Source: a virus
Lineage: Duplodnaviria; Heunggongvirae; Uroviricota; Caudoviricetes
Direction: 5' to 3' (one strand)
DNA length: 4,776 bases
Virus record (IMG/VR): IMGVR_UViG_2617271086_000001
Span: 1-4,776 of that record
Translations under genes and position numbers: made by a program
The notes under the pieces: model-generated
Databases searched by the model: none
The model's input: the letters and a program-made list of their open reading frames with translations, nothing else
Told to the model about the DNA's origin: nothing
Shown: piece after piece, positions 1 through 4,776 of the stretch
Numbering within the stretch: position 1 is the first letter of the stretch
Layout: each line of letters opens with the position of its first letter

Positions 1-426
1 GCAAACCTTACCGTTGCTACGTCAGAACAATGGCGTGATAAGCAAACTGGAGAGCAAAAGGAGCAGACGGAGTGGCACCGTGTGGTAATGAGCGGGAAAC
101 TGGCAGAAATTGCCAGCGAATATCTGCGAAAAGGCTCTGAGGTTTATCTTGAAGGCAAATTGCGGACAAGAAAATGGCAGGATCAAAGCGGACAGGATCG
201 GTTCACTACCGAAGTCATCGTGGGCGTTGGTGGAACCATGCAAATGCTTGGTGGCAAGCAAGGAGGCAATGAACAGTCTTCACCTCAGCGAAATAACGGT
301 CAGCAACAAAGACAGCAACCTCAGCAGCAAGGGAATCACAGCGAACCACCTATGGATTTTGACGACGATATCCCCTTTGCACCAGTAACTCTCCCCTTCC
401 CTCGTCACGCTATTCACGCAATTTAA
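1..426 (+). CDS. ssb: Single-stranded DNA-binding protein, 5'-truncated by the window edge (frame 1 is open from base 1)
   Basis: Translation from base 1 gives ...[68 protein letters not shown]..., closely matching the OB-fold core of E. coli SSB as recalled from memory; Gly/Gln-rich linker; [11 protein letters not shown] acidic tip motif (nt 346-378) followed by an unusual 15-codon extension before TAA at 424-426. Confidence 0.9.
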
Positions 427-434
427 GGACTTAC

Positions 435-983
435 ATGAATCACTTAATGGTTGACCTTGAAACAATGGGCAACGGGCCATACGCGCCAGTTATTTCTATT
501 GGGGCGGTATTCTTTGACCCGAATACCGGAGAAACAGGAGAAGAGTTCTCGGTAAATATCTCGCTTGAGTCATCAATGCGATATCGGGCGCGTCCTGACG
601 CTTCAACGATTTTATGGTGGCTGGAACAGAGTGAAGAAGCCAGAAAATCGCTAACCAGCAACACTCAGGAGCTTTCAACGGCTCTTTCATGGTTATCTGA
701 ATTCATCATAAAGAACGCTAACCACAAATTCGTTCAGGTTTGGGGGAATGGAGCATCATTTGACTGCGTTATTCTCCGCAACAGTTATTCGCTGACAGGA
801 CAGCCAGTTCCGTGGCAGTGGTGGAATGACCGCGACGTAAGAACAATCGTCGAGCTTGGAAAGGTAATAGGATTTGACCCTAAGCGAGATATGCCATTCA
901 AAGGAACTCGCCACAACGCGCTTGATGATGCCATCCACCAAGCCAAATACGTTTCAGCAATCTGGAAAAAATTAGCTAAATAA
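435..983 (+). CDS. DnaQ-like DEDDh 3'-5' exonuclease (RNase T/epsilon-like fold)
   Basis: 182-aa ORF with AAGGA Shine-Dalgarno 5 nt upstream of ATG 435; Exo I-like MVDLETMG, Exo II-like WGNGASFDC, Exo III-like HNALDDAIHQAKY motifs; start 9 nt after the ssb stop. Confidence 0.75.
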   Translation: MNHLMVDLETMGNGPYAPVISIGAVFFDPNTGETGEEFSVNISLESSMRYRARPDASTILWWLEQSEEARKSLTSNTQELSTALSWLSEFIIKNANHKFVQVWGNGASFDCVILRNSYSLTGQPVPWQWWNDRDVRTIVELGKVIGFDPKRDMPFKGTRHNALDDAIHQAKYVSAIWKKLAK

Positions 984-999
984 TCAACAGGAGAAAAAC

Positions 1000-1296
1000 A
1001 TGCCAGCGCCTCTGTATGGTGCGGATGACCCGCGCCGCTGTTCCGGCAATTCCGTATCGGAGGTGCTGGATAAATTCAGAAAAAACTACGACCTGATAAT
1101 GTCGCTACCGCAGGAAACGAAAGAGGAAAAGGAATTTCGCCACTGTATATGGCTTGCAGAGAAAGAAGAACGCGAGCGAATTTACCAGACATCAATCCGA
1201 CCATTCCGCAAAGCCACATATACCCACTCCCCTGAATATATCGACCCGCGCCTGCGTAATTACCGCTCACGCTATGGCGCTATCAGTAATGACTGA
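1000..1296 (+). CDS. Phage early protein, hypothetical; possibly Abc2-like anti-RecBCD protein (recollection only, unverified)
   Basis: 98-aa ORF with AGGAG SD about 8 nt upstream of ATG 1000; charged, Arg/Lys-rich; the N-terminus [14 protein letters not shown] resembles my memory of P22 Abc2-family proteins; it sits directly downstream of the ssb/exonuclease genes. Confidence 0.5.
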
Positions 1297-1306
1297 GGAA
1301 TTTACC

Positions 1307-1471
1307 ATGAGAGGACTTGCATACAATCCCGGCATTCTTCCGGCAGAAATGATTATTCGCCAACGCGTAAAGCCAATGCCATCGAGAGAGGAATTGCTTA
1401 AGAGAAATTCTTTTCCATCAGTGAATCAAAACAAATATCTGAATGCGATGTTGCGGAGTGGGAAGAAATGA
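1307..1471 (+). CDS. Hypothetical small phage protein (54 aa)
   Basis: ATG 1307 preceded by GAGG (1295-1298) at 8 nt spacing; stop overlaps the next start in an ATGA junction (1468-1471). The track's longer 1154 start would overlap the preceding gene and lacks an SD. Confidence 0.45.
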
Positions 1472-1881
1472 AACAAATGTCACTAATTGAGATGGATGGA
1501 TTTCTTAAAGGTAAATGCATCCCAAGTGATTTAAAGGTTAACGAAACAAACGCTGAATATCTGGTGCGTAAATTTGCTGAAGCGGAGGCCAAGTGCGCGG
1601 CGCTGGCAGCGGAGAATGCGGCGCTTAAACAGTCGGAGAAGGAATTTAATAACTTCTGTCGTCAGGAGTACTACGGTTGGGAGGACAACTTCACGGAAAC
1701 CCCAGCCACCGATGCTTTCCTGGCTGAAGTACGGGCGCAGGGCGTGGATATGGCTCGTAACGCGATGATTGATTTTGTTGATGGTGAAGTTGGGCCAAAC
1801 AAGAACGTTCCGGGGCTGATTAGAGGCGCAGAGATATGCGTAAGTATTGCTGAACAGCTTCGCAAAGGAGGCAACCAGTGA
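1468..1881 (+). CDS. Coiled-coil phage accessory protein, possibly Ead/Ea22-like
   Basis: 137-aa ORF; Ala/Glu-rich heptad-like segment [23 protein letters not shown]; ATGA overlap with the upstream gene and GTGA overlap with the downstream gene. Confidence 0.55.
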
Positions 1882-2177
1882 CTGTATGTCTTATTGATAA
1901 ACGTCGACGTGGGCAACAAATACCATCTGTTGAAATGCCGAATCACACATGGTTTTGCGTACTTGATATCGATGGTATGGATGCGTTGGTTGACACTCGT
2001 CATTACTGCGATACCGCAACAGCTACTCCGGCGAAAGCAAAGAAAATGGCTGCTCTGATAGAAAACTGGACTCCACCTGATGGTTGGTGCAATGGGAATG
2101 ATCGAGATTGGCATGAAAAAATGAAGGGCTATATCTGCGATTTCTTACGTAAATGCAACGGATTCAGGGTGATGTGA
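1878..2177 (+). CDS. Hypothetical phage protein (99 aa, Cys/Trp/His-rich)
   Basis: GTG start at 1878 preceded by AGGAGG (1866-1871) at 6 nt spacing; GTGA overlap with the upstream stop; no recognisable family. Confidence 0.5.
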   Translation: MTVCLIDKRRRGQQIPSVEMPNHTWFCVLDIDGMDALVDTRHYCDTATATPAKAKKMAALIENWTPPDGWCNGNDRDWHEKMKGYICDFLRKCNGFRVM

Positions 2178-2178
2178 C

Positions 2179-2586
2179 ATGAACAAGATTGACTATCAGG
2201 CACTGCGTGAAGCGGCAGAGAAAGCCGGTGAAGATAAGTGGCAGGCTAAAAAAATAAATGGTGATTTTTTTGTTATTCGTCACGGTAGTTATACAAGACA
2301 GCATGGCTACACATCGTATCAACCCATTGCGGAGATTGATTGTAAGCCAGTCCGGGATTTTGTTGCCAAGGCTAATCCGGCTACCGTACTGGAATTACTG
2401 GATGAACTGGAAGCAGCAAAAAAGCGCATTGCAGAACTGGAAGCGCGGGAAATATCGCTCCCGGAACGTAGCAGCATGCTTCATCGAACAGATTTTCACG
2501 ATGATTACCAAACGGTAATGGCATACAAAGTTTCTGAAGTCATCGCTGCAATCCGCGCCGCAGGCATTCGCATCAAAGGAGAGTGA
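2179..2586 (+). CDS. Ead/Ea22-like family protein
   Basis: 135-aa ORF; N-terminal MNKIDYQALREAAEKAGEDKW and central LLDELEAAKKRIAELEAR coiled-coil are characteristic of lambdoid Ea22/Ead proteins as I recall them; starts 1 nt after the upstream stop. Confidence 0.6.
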   Translation: MNKIDYQALREAAEKAGEDKWQAKKINGDFFVIRHGSYTRQHGYTSYQPIAEIDCKPVRDFVAKANPATVLELLDELEAAKKRIAELEAREISLPERSSMLHRTDFHDDYQTVMAYKVSEVIAAIRAAGIRIKGE

Positions 2587-2587
2587 G

Positions 2588-2779
2588 ATGGACGGACAAA
2601 TATCAATCGTTCGACCAGGAGCATGTGACGATCGCGAAATACGAATAATTATTCGTCTGGCAATGTGGAAAGCAATAACTGCTCTCATTACCCCAGAAAA
2701 TCTCGCATTAGCATTAACAGGAAAGTCAGACCTGCCAGTAGAGCTAAAGCTGCGAAATGTTGAGATTAAGGTGAAATAG
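2588..2779 (+). CDS. Hypothetical small phage protein (63 aa)
   Basis: ATG 2588 with AAGGAG (2576-2581) at 6 nt spacing; 1 nt gap after the previous stop; no recognisable family. Confidence 0.45.
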   Translation: MDGQISIVRPGACDDREIRIIIRLAMWKAITALITPENLALALTGKSDLPVELKLRNVEIKVK

Positions 2780-2781
2780 CT

Positions 2782-3585
2782 ATGACCACTATTACCAAAG
2801 AACGTATCGAATTATTCATTAAAAATCCGCTTGAAAACGGGCTTACTCGTGGCGAACAAATGGAACTGGCACGAATTGCACTGGCATCACTGGAACGCGA
2901 ACAGATTCGCCACGAGCATGCCAAATGGTCTGACTCCACATTTGGCTGCGTTGGCCCCATTGGTCCACTGAAACACCTCTCAAAAGAGGCACTGGAAGCC
3001 GCAGCCGAACCAGACGATCTTAGCGAGTGGGCTGATATGCAGTTTCTGTTGTGGGATGCACAGCGCCGTGCTGGCATCAGCGATGCTGAAATTACCGCTG
3101 CTATGGAAGATAAATTGAAGATCAACATGGAGCGCCAGTGGCCTGAACCAAAAGATGGTGAGCCTCGCTTGCACATTAAAGAACCCGGCAACTCTCCGGT
3201 AATTCCGGATGGTTTATCCACGGTATGCGCTGAGGCTTATCAGGTTGTAGGAGTTATGGCAGATGCGCTTGGTGTATTCGGTGATGCAGCAGTACAGAAA
3301 GTTCTGGATAACCTGTCACAGCAAAAACTTGTTCACAGAGATGTGCTGCCGTTCTCGCTTCCGGTGACTCCGGATGGTTGGATAAGCTGTAGTGAGCGAA
3401 TGCCGGATAGCAAAACAGCCGTTCTTGTTGCCAGGGAGTTTGACAGGAAAGGTTACTGGCGAATGAAATGGGCGACTTACATCCCTGGGCATCCTGACGC
3501 TAATGATGGGTGGATAATTCCTGGTGCGTCGTGGAAACCGTCACACTGGATGCCGCTACCAGAGCCGCCGCAGGAGGCGAAATGA
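2782..3585 (+). CDS. MazG-like dATP/dGTP pyrophosphohydrolase domain (DUF550) fused to a C-terminal DUF551 domain
   Basis: 267-aa ORF; N-terminal all-alpha region with acidic clusters (ELARIALASLEREQIRHEH; EALEAAAEPDDLSEWADMQFLLWDAQ; MEDKLKINMERQWPEP) resembling MazG-type NTP pyrophosphatases; C-terminal DGWISCSERMPD...HWMPLPEPP matches the DUF551 signature as recalled; AAGGTGA SD at 7 nt spacing. Confidence 0.7.
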   Translation: MTTITKERIELFIKNPLENGLTRGEQMELARIALASLEREQIRHEHAKWSDSTFGCVGPIGPLKHLSKEALEAAAEPDDLSEWADMQFLLWDAQRRAGISDAEITAAMEDKLKINMERQWPEPKDGEPRLHIKEPGNSPVIPDGLSTVCAEAYQVVGVMADALGVFGDAAVQKVLDNLSQQKLVHRDVLPFSLPVTPDGWISCSERMPDSKTAVLVAREFDRKGYWRMKWATYIPGHPDANDGWIIPGASWKPSHWMPLPEPPQEAK

Positions 3586-3863
3586 TGGACTCCTTCGCAA
3601 AATATACAATTATTGACTGGATGGCCTTCCTTCAGGTTTTGCTCATCTGGTTTTATATGGCTTACAGGAGTGGGCAGTGGATTGTCAGTGTAGCCTGTAG
3701 CAAGGGATGGCGTTGGTGGAACCGAAAGAATAAAAAAGCACTGGCATTGGATTCGTTTTACGAAGCATTCAATCTTAACAGCCTTCAGCCTGGTTCTGTC
3801 ATTGTAGTCACCACTCAAAGCGGCATGACCATTCAGATTCATAAACCAAAAGAGGAAAAATGA
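3582..3863 (+). CDS. Small membrane protein (about 93 aa, one predicted N-terminal transmembrane helix)
   Basis: AGGAGG (3572-3577) upstream of tandem ATGs at 3582 and 3585; ATGA overlap with the DUF550/551 stop; hydrophobic segment YTIIDWMAFLQVLLIWFYMAY followed by a basic stretch WRWWNRKNKK (positive-inside topology). Confidence 0.55.
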   Translation: MMDSFAKYTIIDWMAFLQVLLIWFYMAYRSGQWIVSVACSKGWRWWNRKNKKALALDSFYEAFNLNSLQPGSVIVVTTQSGMTIQIHKPKEEK

Positions 3864-3949
3864 TGTGGCCTATATGTGTTAATTGCGGACGGATGTGCCT
3901 ATCTGGATGGTGCCGAAAGTGCGACAAATGCACGAAGAAAAGACAATAA
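3860..3949 (+). CDS. Cys-rich micropeptide (29 aa, MMWPICVNCGRMCLSGWCRKCDKCTKKRQ), putative zinc-ribbon-like
   Basis: Absent from the ORF track (too short). Tandem ATGs at 3860 and 3863 overlap the upstream stop (TGA 3861-3863); AGAGG at 3851-3855; six Cys including a CxxC pair and a C-x2-C-x2-C run; followed by a terminator-like hairpin. Confidence 0.35.
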   Translation: MMWPICVNCGRMCLSGWCRKCDKCTKKRQ

Positions 3950-3953
3950 CAAT

Positions 3954-3980
3954 CCTCGCACTCGCGGGGATTTCTTTTAT
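3954..3980 (+). terminator. Putative intrinsic terminator
   Basis: Stem CCTCGC (3954-3959), loop ACTC, stem GCGGGG (3964-3969) with one G-U wobble, then T-rich tract ATTTCTTTTAT; lies right after the micropeptide stop in the only sizeable intergenic gap. Confidence 0.35.
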
Positions 3981-4017
3981 CTGAACTCGCTACGGCGGTT
4001 TTTTATGGAGATGATAA

Positions 4018-4185
4018 ATGCACTTCCGAGTCACAGGTGAATGGAATGGAGAGCCATTCGACAGAGTTATCGAAGCAGAGGACATCAATGACTGCTATAA
4101 CCACTGGATGATATGGGCGCAGATAGCACATGCAGAAGTAACCAATATTCGAATTGAAGAACTGAAAGAACACCAAGCCGCCTGA
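4018..4185 (+). CDS. Hypothetical small protein (55 aa), moron-like
   Basis: ATG 4018 with GGAG (4007-4010) at 7 nt spacing; translation MHFRVTGEWNGEPFDRVIEAEDINDCYNHWMIWAQIAHAEVTNIRIEELKEHQAA; absent from the ORF track; bracketed by two terminator-like hairpins. Confidence 0.5.
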   Translation: MHFRVTGEWNGEPFDRVIEAEDINDCYNHWMIWAQIAHAEVTNIRIEELKEHQAA

Positions 4186-4200
4186 TGGCGGTTTCTTTTT
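4175..4200 (+). terminator. Putative intrinsic terminator
   Basis: GC stem CCGCC (4178-4182) / GGCGG (4187-4191), loop TGAT, extended by flanking A-T and G-U pairs, followed by TTTCTTTTT; overlaps the stop codon of the 55-aa ORF. Confidence 0.5.
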
Positions 4201-4215
4201 GCCTGGAGAATTAAG

Positions 4216-4407
4216 ATGACCGATACCAGCCTGATTCCTGAGAAAGAAGTGATGAACAAGCTCGGTGTTTCATCACGTCAGACAATCTGGAACTATACCA
4301 AACGGCACGGATTTCCAAAGCCAGTCAGAACCCACCCCAAATCATACCTTCGTGAAGCTGTTGAGGGGTGGATTCTTAACGGTGGCGTTAATCAGAAATG
4401 CTCCTGA
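4216..4407 (+). CDS. xis: AlpA/Xis-family excisionase / phage transcriptional regulator (helix-turn-helix)
   Basis: 63-aa ORF with GGAG (4204-4207) at 8 nt spacing; EKEVMNKLGVSSRQTIWNYTKRHGFPKPVRTHPKSYLREAVEGWI fits the AlpA/excisionase HTH pattern (ligand-free small DNA binder, conserved FPKP and W); adjacent to the integrase. Confidence 0.8.
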   Translation: MTDTSLIPEKEVMNKLGVSSRQTIWNYTKRHGFPKPVRTHPKSYLREAVEGWILNGGVNQKCS

Positions 4408-4776
4408 TGTGCCAGAACAATTTATCAGCGTGAAGCTCATACGCTTTGCGCTGAGCCTCTATCCAGTCGTGTTTATTGTATACGGACATTATCCCGCCAA
4501 GTTCATGACCGAGCATTCGCTCAGTAACATGAGGCTCGACATTCATCTCGGACAGACGTGTAACAAGCGTTCTTCTGAAATCGTGTGTTCGCCAGTAACC
4601 GAGATCCATCCCTCCCCTTATTCTATTTACGAATCGGTTGGCTGCAGCGATGCTGATCGGTTTGTTTATGTCTTCTCCAGGGAAAAGAACATCATTGTAC
4701 GTTGTCATGGCCTTTTCGAGGAAAGGCTTAATTTGTTCGAAGATTGGACGGCGGATAACATTACCCATCTTGCTAT
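4388..4776 (-). CDS. int: Tyrosine recombinase (phage integrase), C-terminal catalytic region; 5' part lies beyond the window
   Basis: Minus-strand frame open to the window edge; HDFRRT (His-x-x-Arg box), MLGHE and VYNKHDW (catalytic Tyr region) motifs; stop at 4388-4390 (TAA on the minus strand). Confidence 0.9.
   Translation of the reverse strand, partial: SKMGNVIRRPIFEQIKPFLEKAMTTYNDVLFPGEDINKPISIAAANRFVNRIRGGMDLGYWRTHDFRRTLVTRLSEMNVEPHVTERMLGHELGGIMSVYNKHDWIEAQRKAYELHADKLFWHIRSISD

What the first reader, a model, noticed from the sequence alone, without database searches (positions are those of the whole stretch)
435..983. DEDDh 3'-5' exonuclease placed directly after ssb, not a classical recombination exonuclease
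Phage recombination modules normally pair an annealase with a 5'-3' exonuclease; a DnaQ/RNase T-like 3'-5' enzyme is a different fold and polarity. Sitting immediately after SSB it may process 3' ssDNA ends or act on RNA or oligonucleotides. Possible roles include proofreading-like trimming, degradation of host small RNAs or signalling oligonucleotides, or protection against host nucleases.
Basis: partly seen in the sequence, partly recalled or inferred. Interest (0 to 1): 0.45.

Follow-up and report, generated by a model that had tools for sequence, protein, structure and literature searches.

The report
Known phage DexA-like 3'-5' exonuclease gene
The gene is a real, intact 3'-to-5' exonuclease of a well-known phage family; it is an optional extra in the recombination gene block of a P22-like E. 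coli prophage, it is already annotated and described in the literature, and only its exact job remains untested.

Summary
ORF 435-983 (+) encodes a 182-aa protein that matches Pfam PF16473 (Rv2179c-like DEDDh exonuclease) over its full length (E 2.9e-73). All five catalytic residues are present: D7, E9, D110, H160 and D165. A confident AlphaFold model (pLDDT 93.5) is closest to T4 DexA (TM 0.79). The gene starts 8 nt after ssb and ends 16 nt before abc2 (anti-RecBCD).

It is not new:
- The identical protein is in phage Bas106 and on at least 1000 public contigs, named "3'-5' exonuclease".
- It is 90% identical to Salmonella phage epsilon34 gp34, the prototype "DnaQ-like" Rec-module nuclease described in Genome Research 2025.

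It is an optional single-gene cassette in Erf-SSB-[HNH]-[Exo]-Abc2 modules; Sf6 lacks it through a clean indel. Relatives at 58-64% identity sit in other temperate-phage early operons with no SSB, so the SSB adjacency belongs to one subgroup only.

The most likely role is accessory trimming of DNA 3' ends during lytic recombination, while Abc2-modified RecBCD supplies the 5' resection. This is inferred, not shown. The rivals are attack on 5hmC DNA (like the tested 37%-identical EcD), RNA trimming and host-DNA scavenging.

Interest is low.

The parts
1..426 (+). 3' part of the phage ssb gene (C-terminal 141 aa). The canonical SSB tip DFDDDIPF is at nt 355-378. A 15-codon extension, [15 protein letters not shown], follows at 379-423, and the stop codon is at 424-426.
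   Evidence: Pfam SSB E 2e-25 and PHROG 44 E 1.8e-51. NCBIfam SSB models. Tail analysis.
427..986 (+). Exonuclease cassette: 8-nt leader GGACTTAC, the ORF, and a short stretch of 3' flank. It is absent as a clean indel in Sf6, where the upstream TAA abuts the abc2 ribosome-binding region.
   Evidence: blastn of the window against Sf6: window 381-426 and 988-1310 are contiguous in Sf6. Sf6 annotation reads Erf-SSB-HNH-Abc2.
435..983 (+). DEDDh 3'-5' exonuclease gene (182 aa), PF16473 / DexA-like. It is the orthologue of epsilon34 gp34, mEpX2 gp31 and Bas106_0031.
453..461 (+). Exo I motif D7-L-E9 (metal-binding carboxylates).
   Evidence: Equivalent to DexA D7/E9. D7 is invariant and E9 at least 90% conserved in 39 homologues.
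762..764 (+). Exo II aspartate D110 (in GASFD).
   Evidence: Aligns with DexA D119. Invariant.
912..929 (+). Exo III motif H160-x4-D165 (general base His plus a carboxylate; this defines the DEDDh subclass).
   Evidence: Aligns with DexA H186/D191. Invariant.
1000..1296 (+). abc2 anti-RecBCD gene, 16 nt downstream of the exonuclease stop codon.
   Evidence: Pfam PF11043 E 6.9e-62 and PHROG 656. Downstream neighbour in 66 of 80 related loci.
1307..1471 (+). Small DUF2737-type ORF that follows abc2 in this module (homologue of HK620 hkaI, HK97 gp38 and epsilon34 gp32).
   Evidence: Synteny by tblastn in 80 loci. Annotations in mEpX2, HK620 and epsilon34.

Best explanation
ORF 435-983 encodes a small, stand-alone, metal-dependent DEDDh (DnaQ/RNase T fold) exonuclease of the DexA branch of Pfam PF16473. 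It removes nucleotides one at a time from a free 3'-OH end.

It is an optional single-gene cassette inside the recombination (Rec) module of a P22-like/lambdoid E. coli prophage. The gene order is kil, arf-like, Erf annealase, SSB, [HNH], [Exo], Abc2. It has no promoter of its own, so it should be transcribed from PL only during lytic growth or induction.

The most likely job is accessory processing of DNA 3' ends while the phage recombines and replicates. Abc2-modified RecBCD supplies the 5'-strand resection and Erf and SSB handle the 3' tails. The exonuclease would trim 3' single-stranded tails or flaps, for example non-homologous 3' ends left after annealing, or 3' overhangs that would block RecBCD loading. 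This would parallel the contribution of T4 DexA to double-strand-break repair and intron homing.

Shown here: gene, fold, catalytic residues, family, orthology, synteny, optional-cassette status and lack of an own promoter. Inferred: DNA rather than RNA substrate, and the recombination role. My confidence that it is an active DEDDh 3'-5' exonuclease is about 0.95. My confidence in the specific role of 3'-end trimming in recombination is about 0.45.
For: Family and chemistry:
- PF16473 full-length match, E 2.9e-73.
- The only sequence hits in the PDB are T4 DexA 8KEL/8KEN, E 1e-13 with the single sequence and 5e-15 with a profile.
- AlphaFold2 model pLDDT 93.5, pTM 0.89.
- Foldseek top hits are DexA (TMq 0.79, E 7e-12), then RNase T, Orn/REXO2, 3'hExo and RNase AS.
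- All five DEDDh residues are present and conserved, which indicates selection for catalysis.

Context:
- In 80 viral contigs with 80-100% identical homologues, the upstream neighbour is SSB in 64 and HNH in 12. The downstream neighbour is Abc2 in 66. The spacers are tight: 8 nt from the upstream stop codon to the exo ATG and 16-27 nt by tblastn hit ends before abc2.
- The same order is found in mEpX2, Bas106, an E. coli chromosome and epsilon34.
- The window contains no sigma-70-like promoter: 0 found against 6.0 +/- 2.4 expected.

Literature:
- Genome Res 2025 lists DnaQ-like 3'-5' nucleases as likely legitimate Rec-module members because of this tight packing, with epsilon34 as prototype (PMC12315714).
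- DexA, the closest solved relative, is a DNA 3'-5' exonuclease with roles in intron homing and host DNA breakdown (PMC12153337).
- Abc2 is proposed to hijack RecBCD to generate the ssDNA used for Erf recombination (PMC9836394).
Against: - No experiment exists for this subfamily.
- 3'-5' exonucleases usually inhibit rather than promote homologous recombination, as the Genome Res authors themselves note.
- The gene is dispensable for the module. Sf6, HK620, P22 and most Abc2 modules lack it: 60 of 70 Abc2-anchored loci.
- Relatives of 58-64% identity sit outside any Rec module, next to DndB/xis/int or next to Dam/gpA of P2-like phages. The family's core function therefore cannot depend on an annealase or on SSB.
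- The Pfam family takes its name from an RNase (Rv2179c = RNase AS). The tested E. coli homologue EcD was reported to act on 5hmC DNA as a defence.
Confidence: 0.5

Rival explanations
1. HREX-like inter-phage weapon: the enzyme selectively degrades hydroxymethyl-cytosine DNA of T-even phages that infect the same cell, as reported for the E. coli DexA homologue EcD.
For: EcD belongs to the same Pfam family. It was reported to degrade the T4 genome but not unmodified dsDNA, and to protect E. coli from T4 when carried on a plasmid (PMC12153337). I recovered EcD-like genes through the published primer: 189 aa, starting MIDTET, with Ala78. They are 37% identical to the window protein. The tryptophan equivalent to DexA W152, said to stack on 5hmC, is conserved as W130. 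The DexA tetramer residue D90 is absent, as in EcD.
Against: The window protein is only 37% identical to EcD. The second claimed 5hmC-recognition residue (DexA D169) has no clear equivalent: it aligns to V144 or F147 depending on the method. The gene lies inside the repressor-controlled PL operon with no promoter of its own, so it should be silent in a lysogen, which is when defence would matter. There is no significant PADLOC defence-model hit, only a generic DEDDh match at E 2e-4. The EcD evidence comes from plasmid expression.
Confidence: 0.15
2. RNA 3'-exonuclease: it trims RNA 3' ends (host or phage transcripts, small RNAs or RNA-phage genomes), like the family's namesake Rv2179c/RNase AS or the ISG20-like TONDO exonucleases.
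For: The Pfam and RefSeq names are '3'-5' exoribonuclease'. RNase T, Orn/REXO2, 3'hExo and RNase AS are all structural neighbours. DEDDh exonucleases encoded in prophages can block RNA phages by trimming 3' UTRs (PMC13344964).
Against: RNase AS is a distant neighbour: Foldseek rank 36, and not retrieved by a sequence profile at E <= 0.01. DexA, a DNase, is clearly the closest relative. TONDOs are a different, ISG20-like branch and usually carry an auxiliary domain. The flanking genes are all DNA-transaction genes.
Confidence: 0.1
3. Nucleotide scavenging: it degrades host DNA fragments or oligonucleotides to feed phage DNA synthesis, which is the other classical role of T4 DexA.
For: This is a documented DexA role (T4 record note). 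The same operon carries a dATP/dGTP pyrophosphohydrolase-domain gene at 2782-3585, which hints at nucleotide-pool functions. The family occurs in many early operons irrespective of recombination genes.
Against: Temperate lambdoid phages are not known to degrade the host chromosome (general knowledge, not tested here). No endonuclease that would start host DNA breakdown is consistently linked. The HNH gene is optional and looks like a mobile cassette.
Confidence: 0.1
4. Counter-defence: it destroys a host immune nucleic acid that has a free 3' end, such as linear signalling oligonucleotides or retron msDNA that guards RecBCD.
For: The only support is positional: it sits beside abc2, and anti-RecBCD proteins are known triggers of RecBCD-guarding systems (PMC9836394 introduction).
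Against: No sequence or literature evidence was found. Cyclic oligonucleotide signals have no 3' end for a DEDDh exonuclease. The gene is absent from most Abc2 modules.
Confidence: 0.05

Closest known systems
Salmonella phage epsilon34 gp34 (also Escherichia phage mEpX2 gp31 and Bas106_0031): the 'DnaQ-like' Rec-module nuclease of lambdoid phages (Genome Res 2025, PMC12315714)
   Same: 90% identical to epsilon34 gp34 (163 of 182 residues) and 100% identical to Bas106_0031. Same length and same catalytic residues. Same gene order: kil, arf-like, Erf, SSB, exo, Abc2, DUF2737. Same SSB tail.
   Different: Nothing of substance; this is an orthologue. In Bas106 an HNH gene lies between ssb and exo.
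T4 DexA (exonuclease A; PDB 8KEL/8KEN)
   Same: Same Pfam family and fold (TMq 0.79). The DEDDh residues align one to one, and W130 corresponds to W152. Both are early genes of a phage.
   Different: 31% identity. The window protein is 45 aa shorter and lacks DexA's surface insertions and C-terminal tail. It has no equivalent of the tetramer residue D90 and no clear equivalent of D169. It comes from a temperate phage with unmodified DNA, and from a different genomic context.
EcD / 'HREX' exonuclease of E. coli (NAR 2025, PMC12153337)
   Same: Same family, similar size (189 against 182 aa), stand-alone domain, DexA D90 absent, tryptophan conserved.
   Different: 37% identity. EcD-like genes lie in P2/186-like early operons (exo, ParE-like, Dam, DUF4406, gpA), not in a Rec module. 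The reported 5hmC-selective activity has not been tested for the window protein.
P22 recombination module (arf, erf, abc1, abc2)
   Same: Same operon position, with the same arf-like, Erf-type annealase and Abc2 genes. Resection is presumed to come from Abc2-modified RecBCD.
   Different: P22 has abc1 in the slot where this module has ssb plus exo. P22 encodes no SSB and no nuclease in the module.
Rv2179c / RNase AS of M. tuberculosis (PDB 4OKE), namesake of PF16473
   Same: DEDDh fold. Assigned to the same Pfam family.
   Different: Distant: Foldseek rank 36, 20% identity, and not found by a sequence profile. It is a chromosomal poly(A)-specific RNase, not a phage gene.

Membership tests
DEDDh (DnaQ-like / RNase T-type) 3'-5' exonuclease superfamily | Exo I motif D-x-E | tested here: met
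   D7-L-E9. It aligns to DexA D7/E9. D7 is invariant and E9 at least 90% conserved in 39 homologues.
DEDDh (DnaQ-like / RNase T-type) 3'-5' exonuclease superfamily | Exo II aspartate | tested here: met
   D110 in GASFD aligns to DexA D119. Invariant.
DEDDh (DnaQ-like / RNase T-type) 3'-5' exonuclease superfamily | Exo III motif H-x4-D (His rather than Tyr, hence the 'h' subclass) | tested here: met
   H160-NALD-D165 aligns to DexA H186/D191. Invariant.
DEDDh (DnaQ-like / RNase T-type) 3'-5' exonuclease superfamily | RNase H-like alpha/beta fold | tested here: met
   AlphaFold2 model pLDDT 93.5. 108 PDB matches at E <= 0.001; all of the 50 best listed are DEDD-type exonucleases.
DEDDh (DnaQ-like / RNase T-type) 3'-5' exonuclease superfamily | Divalent-metal-dependent 3'-5' exonuclease activity | not testable with these tools
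   Needs purified protein and D7A/E9A controls.
Pfam PF16473 (Rv2179c-like) | Score above the curated gathering threshold over the whole domain | tested here: met
   245.7 bits against a cut-off of 27, profile positions 1-177 of 177.
T4 DexA-type exodeoxyribonuclease | Significant sequence and structural similarity to DexA | tested here: met
   phmmer E 9.5e-14, profile E 4.8e-15, BLASTP 31% identity at E 2e-19, TMq 0.79.
T4 DexA-type exodeoxyribonuclease | Dimer-tetramer switch residues S87 and D90 | tested here: not met
   S81 aligns with S87, but DexA I89-D90 fall in a gap, followed by A83.
T4 DexA-type exodeoxyribonuclease | DNA 3'-5' exonuclease activity | not testable with these tools
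   Biochemistry is required.
HREX / EcD (5hmC-recognising exonuclease defence) | Tryptophan equivalent to DexA W152 | tested here: met
   W130 is invariant in the 5-way alignment.
HREX / EcD (5hmC-recognising exonuclease defence) | Acidic residue equivalent to DexA D169 | tested here: inconclusive
   It aligns to F147 (HMMER) or V144 (MAFFT). D148 is nearby. The region contains indels.
HREX / EcD (5hmC-recognising exonuclease defence) | Selective degradation of 5hmC DNA and protection against T4 | not testable with these tools
   Reported only for EcD, which is 37% identical.
HREX / EcD (5hmC-recognising exonuclease defence) | Expression in the uninfected (lysogenic) cell | tested here: inconclusive
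   No promoter-like site in the window (0 against 6.0 +/- 2.4 expected) and an 8-nt gap after ssb argue for PL-only transcription. This is a consensus scan, not expression data.
Lambdoid Rec module, 'DnaQ-type nuclease' class (Genome Res 2025) | Tightly packed with annealase, SSB and anti-RecBCD genes in the early-left operon | tested here: met
   In the window the order is ssb, 8 nt, exo, 16 nt, abc2. Erf lies upstream in complete relatives. Seen in 64+12 and 66 of 80 loci.
Lambda Exo / RecE-type 5'-3' recombination exonucleases | PD-(D/E)XK fold and 5'-3' polarity | tested here: not met
   No such Pfam or PHROG hit; the fold is DEDDh.
Known anti-phage defence systems (PADLOC-DB) | Significant match to a defence-system protein model | tested here: not met
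   Only a generic CRISPR-associated DEDDh model at E 2.3e-4 (19.9 bits). The neighbours gave no hit.

The most novel reading that the evidence does not exclude
The exonuclease is a working partner of the Erf/SSB/Abc2 machinery rather than a passenger. It could blunt or trim 3' tails so that Abc2-modified RecBCD can load, or so that annealed intermediates can be ligated. That would be the first annealase module shown to use a dedicated 3'-5' nuclease, in a system usually said to lack any exonuclease. Alternatively, it could double as a nuclease selective for modified DNA that clears co-infecting T-even phages during lytic growth.
Probability: 0.15. Interest if true: 0.5.

Novelty: already known. 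Interest (0 to 1): 0.2.

Why it matters
As it stands this is routine annotation. The protein is in RefSeq and in isolated phages under the same name, and its presence in lambdoid recombination modules was pointed out in 2025.

The residual question is real but modest: why would a recombination module that relies on 3' single-stranded tails carry an enzyme that destroys 3' ends? An answer would clarify how P22-type (Abc2) systems process DNA ends, and whether the reported 5hmC-DNA activity of a distant homologue applies more widely. Bas106, epsilon34 and mEpX2 are cultured phages, so a clean deletion experiment is feasible.

Tried and rejected
1. EcD identity. I asked whether the window protein is the experimentally tested 'EcD'. 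The published primers show that EcD starts MIDTET. I recovered EcD-like genes from viral contigs. They are only 37% identical to the window protein, so the EcD results cannot simply be transferred.

2. SSB-exo association. A first Fisher test (odds ratio 27, p 1.6e-4) is invalid. The 45 'SSB-less' Abc2 modules carry a short 127-aa SSB (PHROG 44, E 1e-27). What remains is that the exo occurs in 9 of 24 modules with the long E. coli-type SSB and in 0 of 45 with the short SSB. Simple linkage could explain this.

3. SSB extension as docking peptide. I considered that the 15-aa extension masking the SSB C-terminal tip might recruit the exonuclease. Rejected: the same extension is present in 11 exo-less and 8 exo-containing HNH-less modules. 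It is the shared 3' end of an optional HNH cassette.

4. Defence-system membership. PADLOC gave only a weak generic DEDDh hit. NCBIfam has no model for the protein.

5. Sequence link to Rv2179c/RNase AS. The founding Rv2179c paper is not held in the library. 'PF16473' occurs in no held paper.

6. TONDO (ISG20-like) exonucleases. This is a different branch and its sequences are not held, so membership could not be tested.

7. Supplementary tables of the Genome Research paper are not held, so I could not extract the authors' count of DnaQ-type modules.

Full report
OBSERVATION

The window is a stretch of the early-left (PL) operon of a P22-like/lambdoid E. coli prophage. All substantial ORFs lie on the + strand except a partial integrase at the right end. 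Their order is:
- the 3' part of ssb (1-426);
- the ORF in question (435-983);
- abc2 anti-RecBCD (1000-1296);
- a DUF2737-type small ORF (1307-1471);
- a PHROG 614 gene, DUF7739, Ead/Ea22 and a small ORF;
- a dATP/dGTP-pyrophosphohydrolase + DUF551 fusion (2782-3585);
- further small ORFs, and an AlpA-like excisionase (4216-4407);
- a convergent integrase fragment (4388-4768, minus strand).

The ORF exists exactly as described. It has an ATG at 435, a TAA at 981-983 and 182 codons. It lies 8 nt after the ssb stop codon, with an AGGA motif at 426-429.

WHAT IT IS

The product matches Pfam PF16473 (Rv2179c-like 3'-5' exoribonuclease domain) end to end, at E 2.9e-73 and 245.7 bits against a cut-off of 27. 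It matches PHROG 255 'exonuclease' at E 7e-86.

By sequence, the only solved relatives are the two T4 DexA entries 8KEL and 8KEN. The E-value is 1e-13 with the single sequence and 5e-15 with a 39-sequence profile.

An AlphaFold2 model built on that alignment is confident (pLDDT 93.5, pTM 0.89). Foldseek against the PDB ranks DexA first (TMq 0.79, E 7e-12). RNase T, Orn/REXO2, 3'hExo and, at rank 36, RNase AS (4OKE) follow. To my knowledge RNase AS is Rv2179c, the namesake of the Pfam family.

They align one to one with DexA D7, E9, D119, H186 and D191. The catalytic list for DexA comes from PMC12153337, which prints E12 where the sequence has E9. D7, D110, H160 and D165 are invariant, and E9 is at least 90% conserved, across 39 homologues of 57-87% identity. 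The gene therefore very probably encodes an active 3'-5' exonuclease.

HOW WELL KNOWN IT IS

- The exact protein sequence is in the public collection on at least 1000 contigs, named '3'-5' exoribonuclease/exonuclease'.
- There are 3806 90%-identity clusters of homologues.
- 173 of 5426 complete E. coli genomes carry the gene at 95% DNA identity or more.
- 1855 of 50,697 phage records encode a family member.
- The identical protein is Bas106_0031 of the isolated phage CurroJimenez_Bas106.
- The protein is 90% identical to epsilon34 gp34.

[quoted passage not shown] It calls this curious, because such enzymes usually inhibit recombination. It names the epsilon34 'DnaQ' gene as a likely legitimate module member because of its tight packing (PMC12315714). 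The epsilon34 record shows the same order as the window: kil, arf-like, Erf gp36, SSB gp35, exo gp34, Abc2 gp33, DUF2737.

SURROUNDINGS AND MODULARITY

Complete relatives show what the window cuts off upstream: N ... cIII, kil, arf-like, Erf/Rad52-type annealase, SSB.

In 80 viral contigs with 80-100% identical homologues, the upstream neighbour is SSB in 64 and an HNH endonuclease in 12. The downstream neighbour is Abc2 in 66.

The exonuclease is nevertheless optional:
- Sf6 has Erf, SSB, HNH, Abc2.
- HK620 has Sak4, SSB, Abc2.
- P22 has erf, abc1, abc2.

Aligning the window to Sf6 shows a clean gene-sized indel. Window 427-986 is missing in Sf6, and the upstream TAA there abuts the abc2 ribosome-binding region.

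Anchoring on Abc2 instead gave 70 informative loci. Only 10 carry the exonuclease, one of them truncated.

More distant members of the same subfamily (58-64% identity) are not in Rec modules at all:
- Salmonella, Klebsiella and Citrobacter prophages have YfdP, DUF2303..., [DndB], exo, xis-like, int.
- A Serratia P2/186-like prophage has Fil, TerB..., exo, Dam..., DUF4406, gpA.

The family is therefore a general early gene of temperate phages. The adjacency to SSB characterises one subgroup only.

MECHANISM

Shown:
- a DEDDh active site under purifying selection;
- DexA as the nearest characterised relative;
- co-transcription with recombination genes, supported by the absence of sigma-70-like promoters anywhere in the window (0 against 6.0 +/- 2.4 in shuffles) and by the 8-nt and 16-nt spacers.

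Established background:
- Abc2 binds RecC and is proposed to hijack RecBCD to make the ssDNA for Erf.
- Abc2-type phages 'apparently lack an exonuclease function' (PMC9836394).

Inference: the enzyme most likely trims DNA 3' ends (tails, flaps or overhangs) as an accessory step of lytic recombination and replication. It is dispensable, and it is probably redundant with host ExoI/ExoX-type enzymes. I put about 0.45 on this specific role and about 0.95 on the enzymology.

RIVALS

(a) HREX-like attack on 5hmC DNA. A DexA homologue from E. coli, EcD, was reported to degrade T4 DNA but not unmodified DNA, and to protect against T4. I recovered EcD-like genes through the published primer. They are 37% identical to the window protein. 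The W152 equivalent is conserved as W130, and DexA D90 is absent as in EcD, but the D169 equivalent is unclear. The gene's location in a repressed operon and the lack of a PADLOC match argue against a role in lysogens.

(b) RNA trimming. This is supported by the family's name and by RNase structural neighbours. A 2026 preprint also reports that prophage-borne ISG20-like DEDDh exonucleases block RNA phages. RNase AS is distant, however, and the TONDOs belong to another branch.

(c) Nucleotide scavenging.

(d) Counter-defence. I found no evidence for it.

CHECKS THAT FAILED OR WERE WITHDRAWN

A first SSB-exo association test was unsound, because the 'SSB-less' class has a short SSB.

I also considered whether the odd SSB tail is a docking peptide for the exonuclease. 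It is equally present in exo-less modules, so this idea is rejected.

VERDICT

The thing itself is already known and annotated, and only its biological role is open. Interest is low (0.2). The most novel reading not excluded is that it is a genuine working component of the Abc2/Erf machinery or a modified-DNA nuclease (probability about 0.15).

Noticed in passing
window 355-434 (ssb 3' end); compare L002 5330-5900 (Bas106) and L120 3300-3390 (Sf6): The SSB here does not end at the canonical DFDDDIPF tip; it carries 15 more residues ([15 protein letters not shown]). Those codons are 99-100% identical to the 3' end of the HNH endonuclease gene in HNH-carrying relatives, whose ssb ends ...DDSDIPF*. 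An HNH cassette of about 500 bp therefore replaces 15 nt at the ssb 3' end and brings a recoded IPF-stop, as a homing-endonuclease cassette would. A masked IPF terminus might prevent this SSB from recruiting host SSB partners (inference only). The Sf6 record already notes the 14 shared residues.
   Followed up: yes
L028 6404-6970 (-), also L007, L012, L022, L023, L025; L114 5001-5579: The 'bacterial' anti-T4 exonuclease EcD of NAR 2025 appears to be a phage gene. EcD-like ORFs lie in P2/186-like early operons (DUF4761 ... exo, ParE-like, Dam methylase, DUF4406 ... replication protein gpA). A 58%-identical homologue of the window protein sits in the same kind of operon in Serratia.
   Followed up: partly
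L123 3094-3477, L154 2002-2385 (and 43 similar loci): Most Abc2 modules sampled (45 of 70) carry a short 127-aa SSB-type protein ending ...YDDSIPF (PHROG 44, no Pfam hit) between erf and abc2. None of these modules has the exonuclease.
   Followed up: partly
window 1-4776: The consensus scan finds no sigma-70-like promoter on either strand of the whole window (0 against 6.0 +/- 2.4 in shuffles). This is a depletion, consistent with one long antiterminated PL transcript. Terminator-like hairpins lie at 3951-3972 and 4175-4194, just before the excisionase gene.
   Followed up: no
window 2782-3585 (+): A 267-aa fusion of a dATP/dGTP pyrophosphohydrolase domain (PF04447, E 5e-42) with DUF551 (PF04448) lies in the same operon. 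It is a nucleotide-pool enzyme of unknown role in these phages.
   Followed up: no
window 4216-4407 (+) and 4388-4768 (-): The AlpA-like excisionase gene and the integrase gene are convergent, and their 3' ends overlap by 20 bp. This differs from the co-oriented xis-int pair of P22 and epsilon34. The integrase ORF runs off the window end.
   Followed up: no
L182 3026-3481: One Abc2-anchored contig carries an N-terminally truncated copy of the exonuclease directly before abc2, with no recognisable SSB or annealase upstream. It is probably a deletion derivative.
   Followed up: no
L003 7504-8000 (E. coli WP7-S17-ESBL-01 prophage): RefSeq leaves a gap of about 500 bp unannotated between ssb and the exonuclease. 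The size and position match the HNH cassette, so the HNH gene is probably present but was not called.
   Followed up: no
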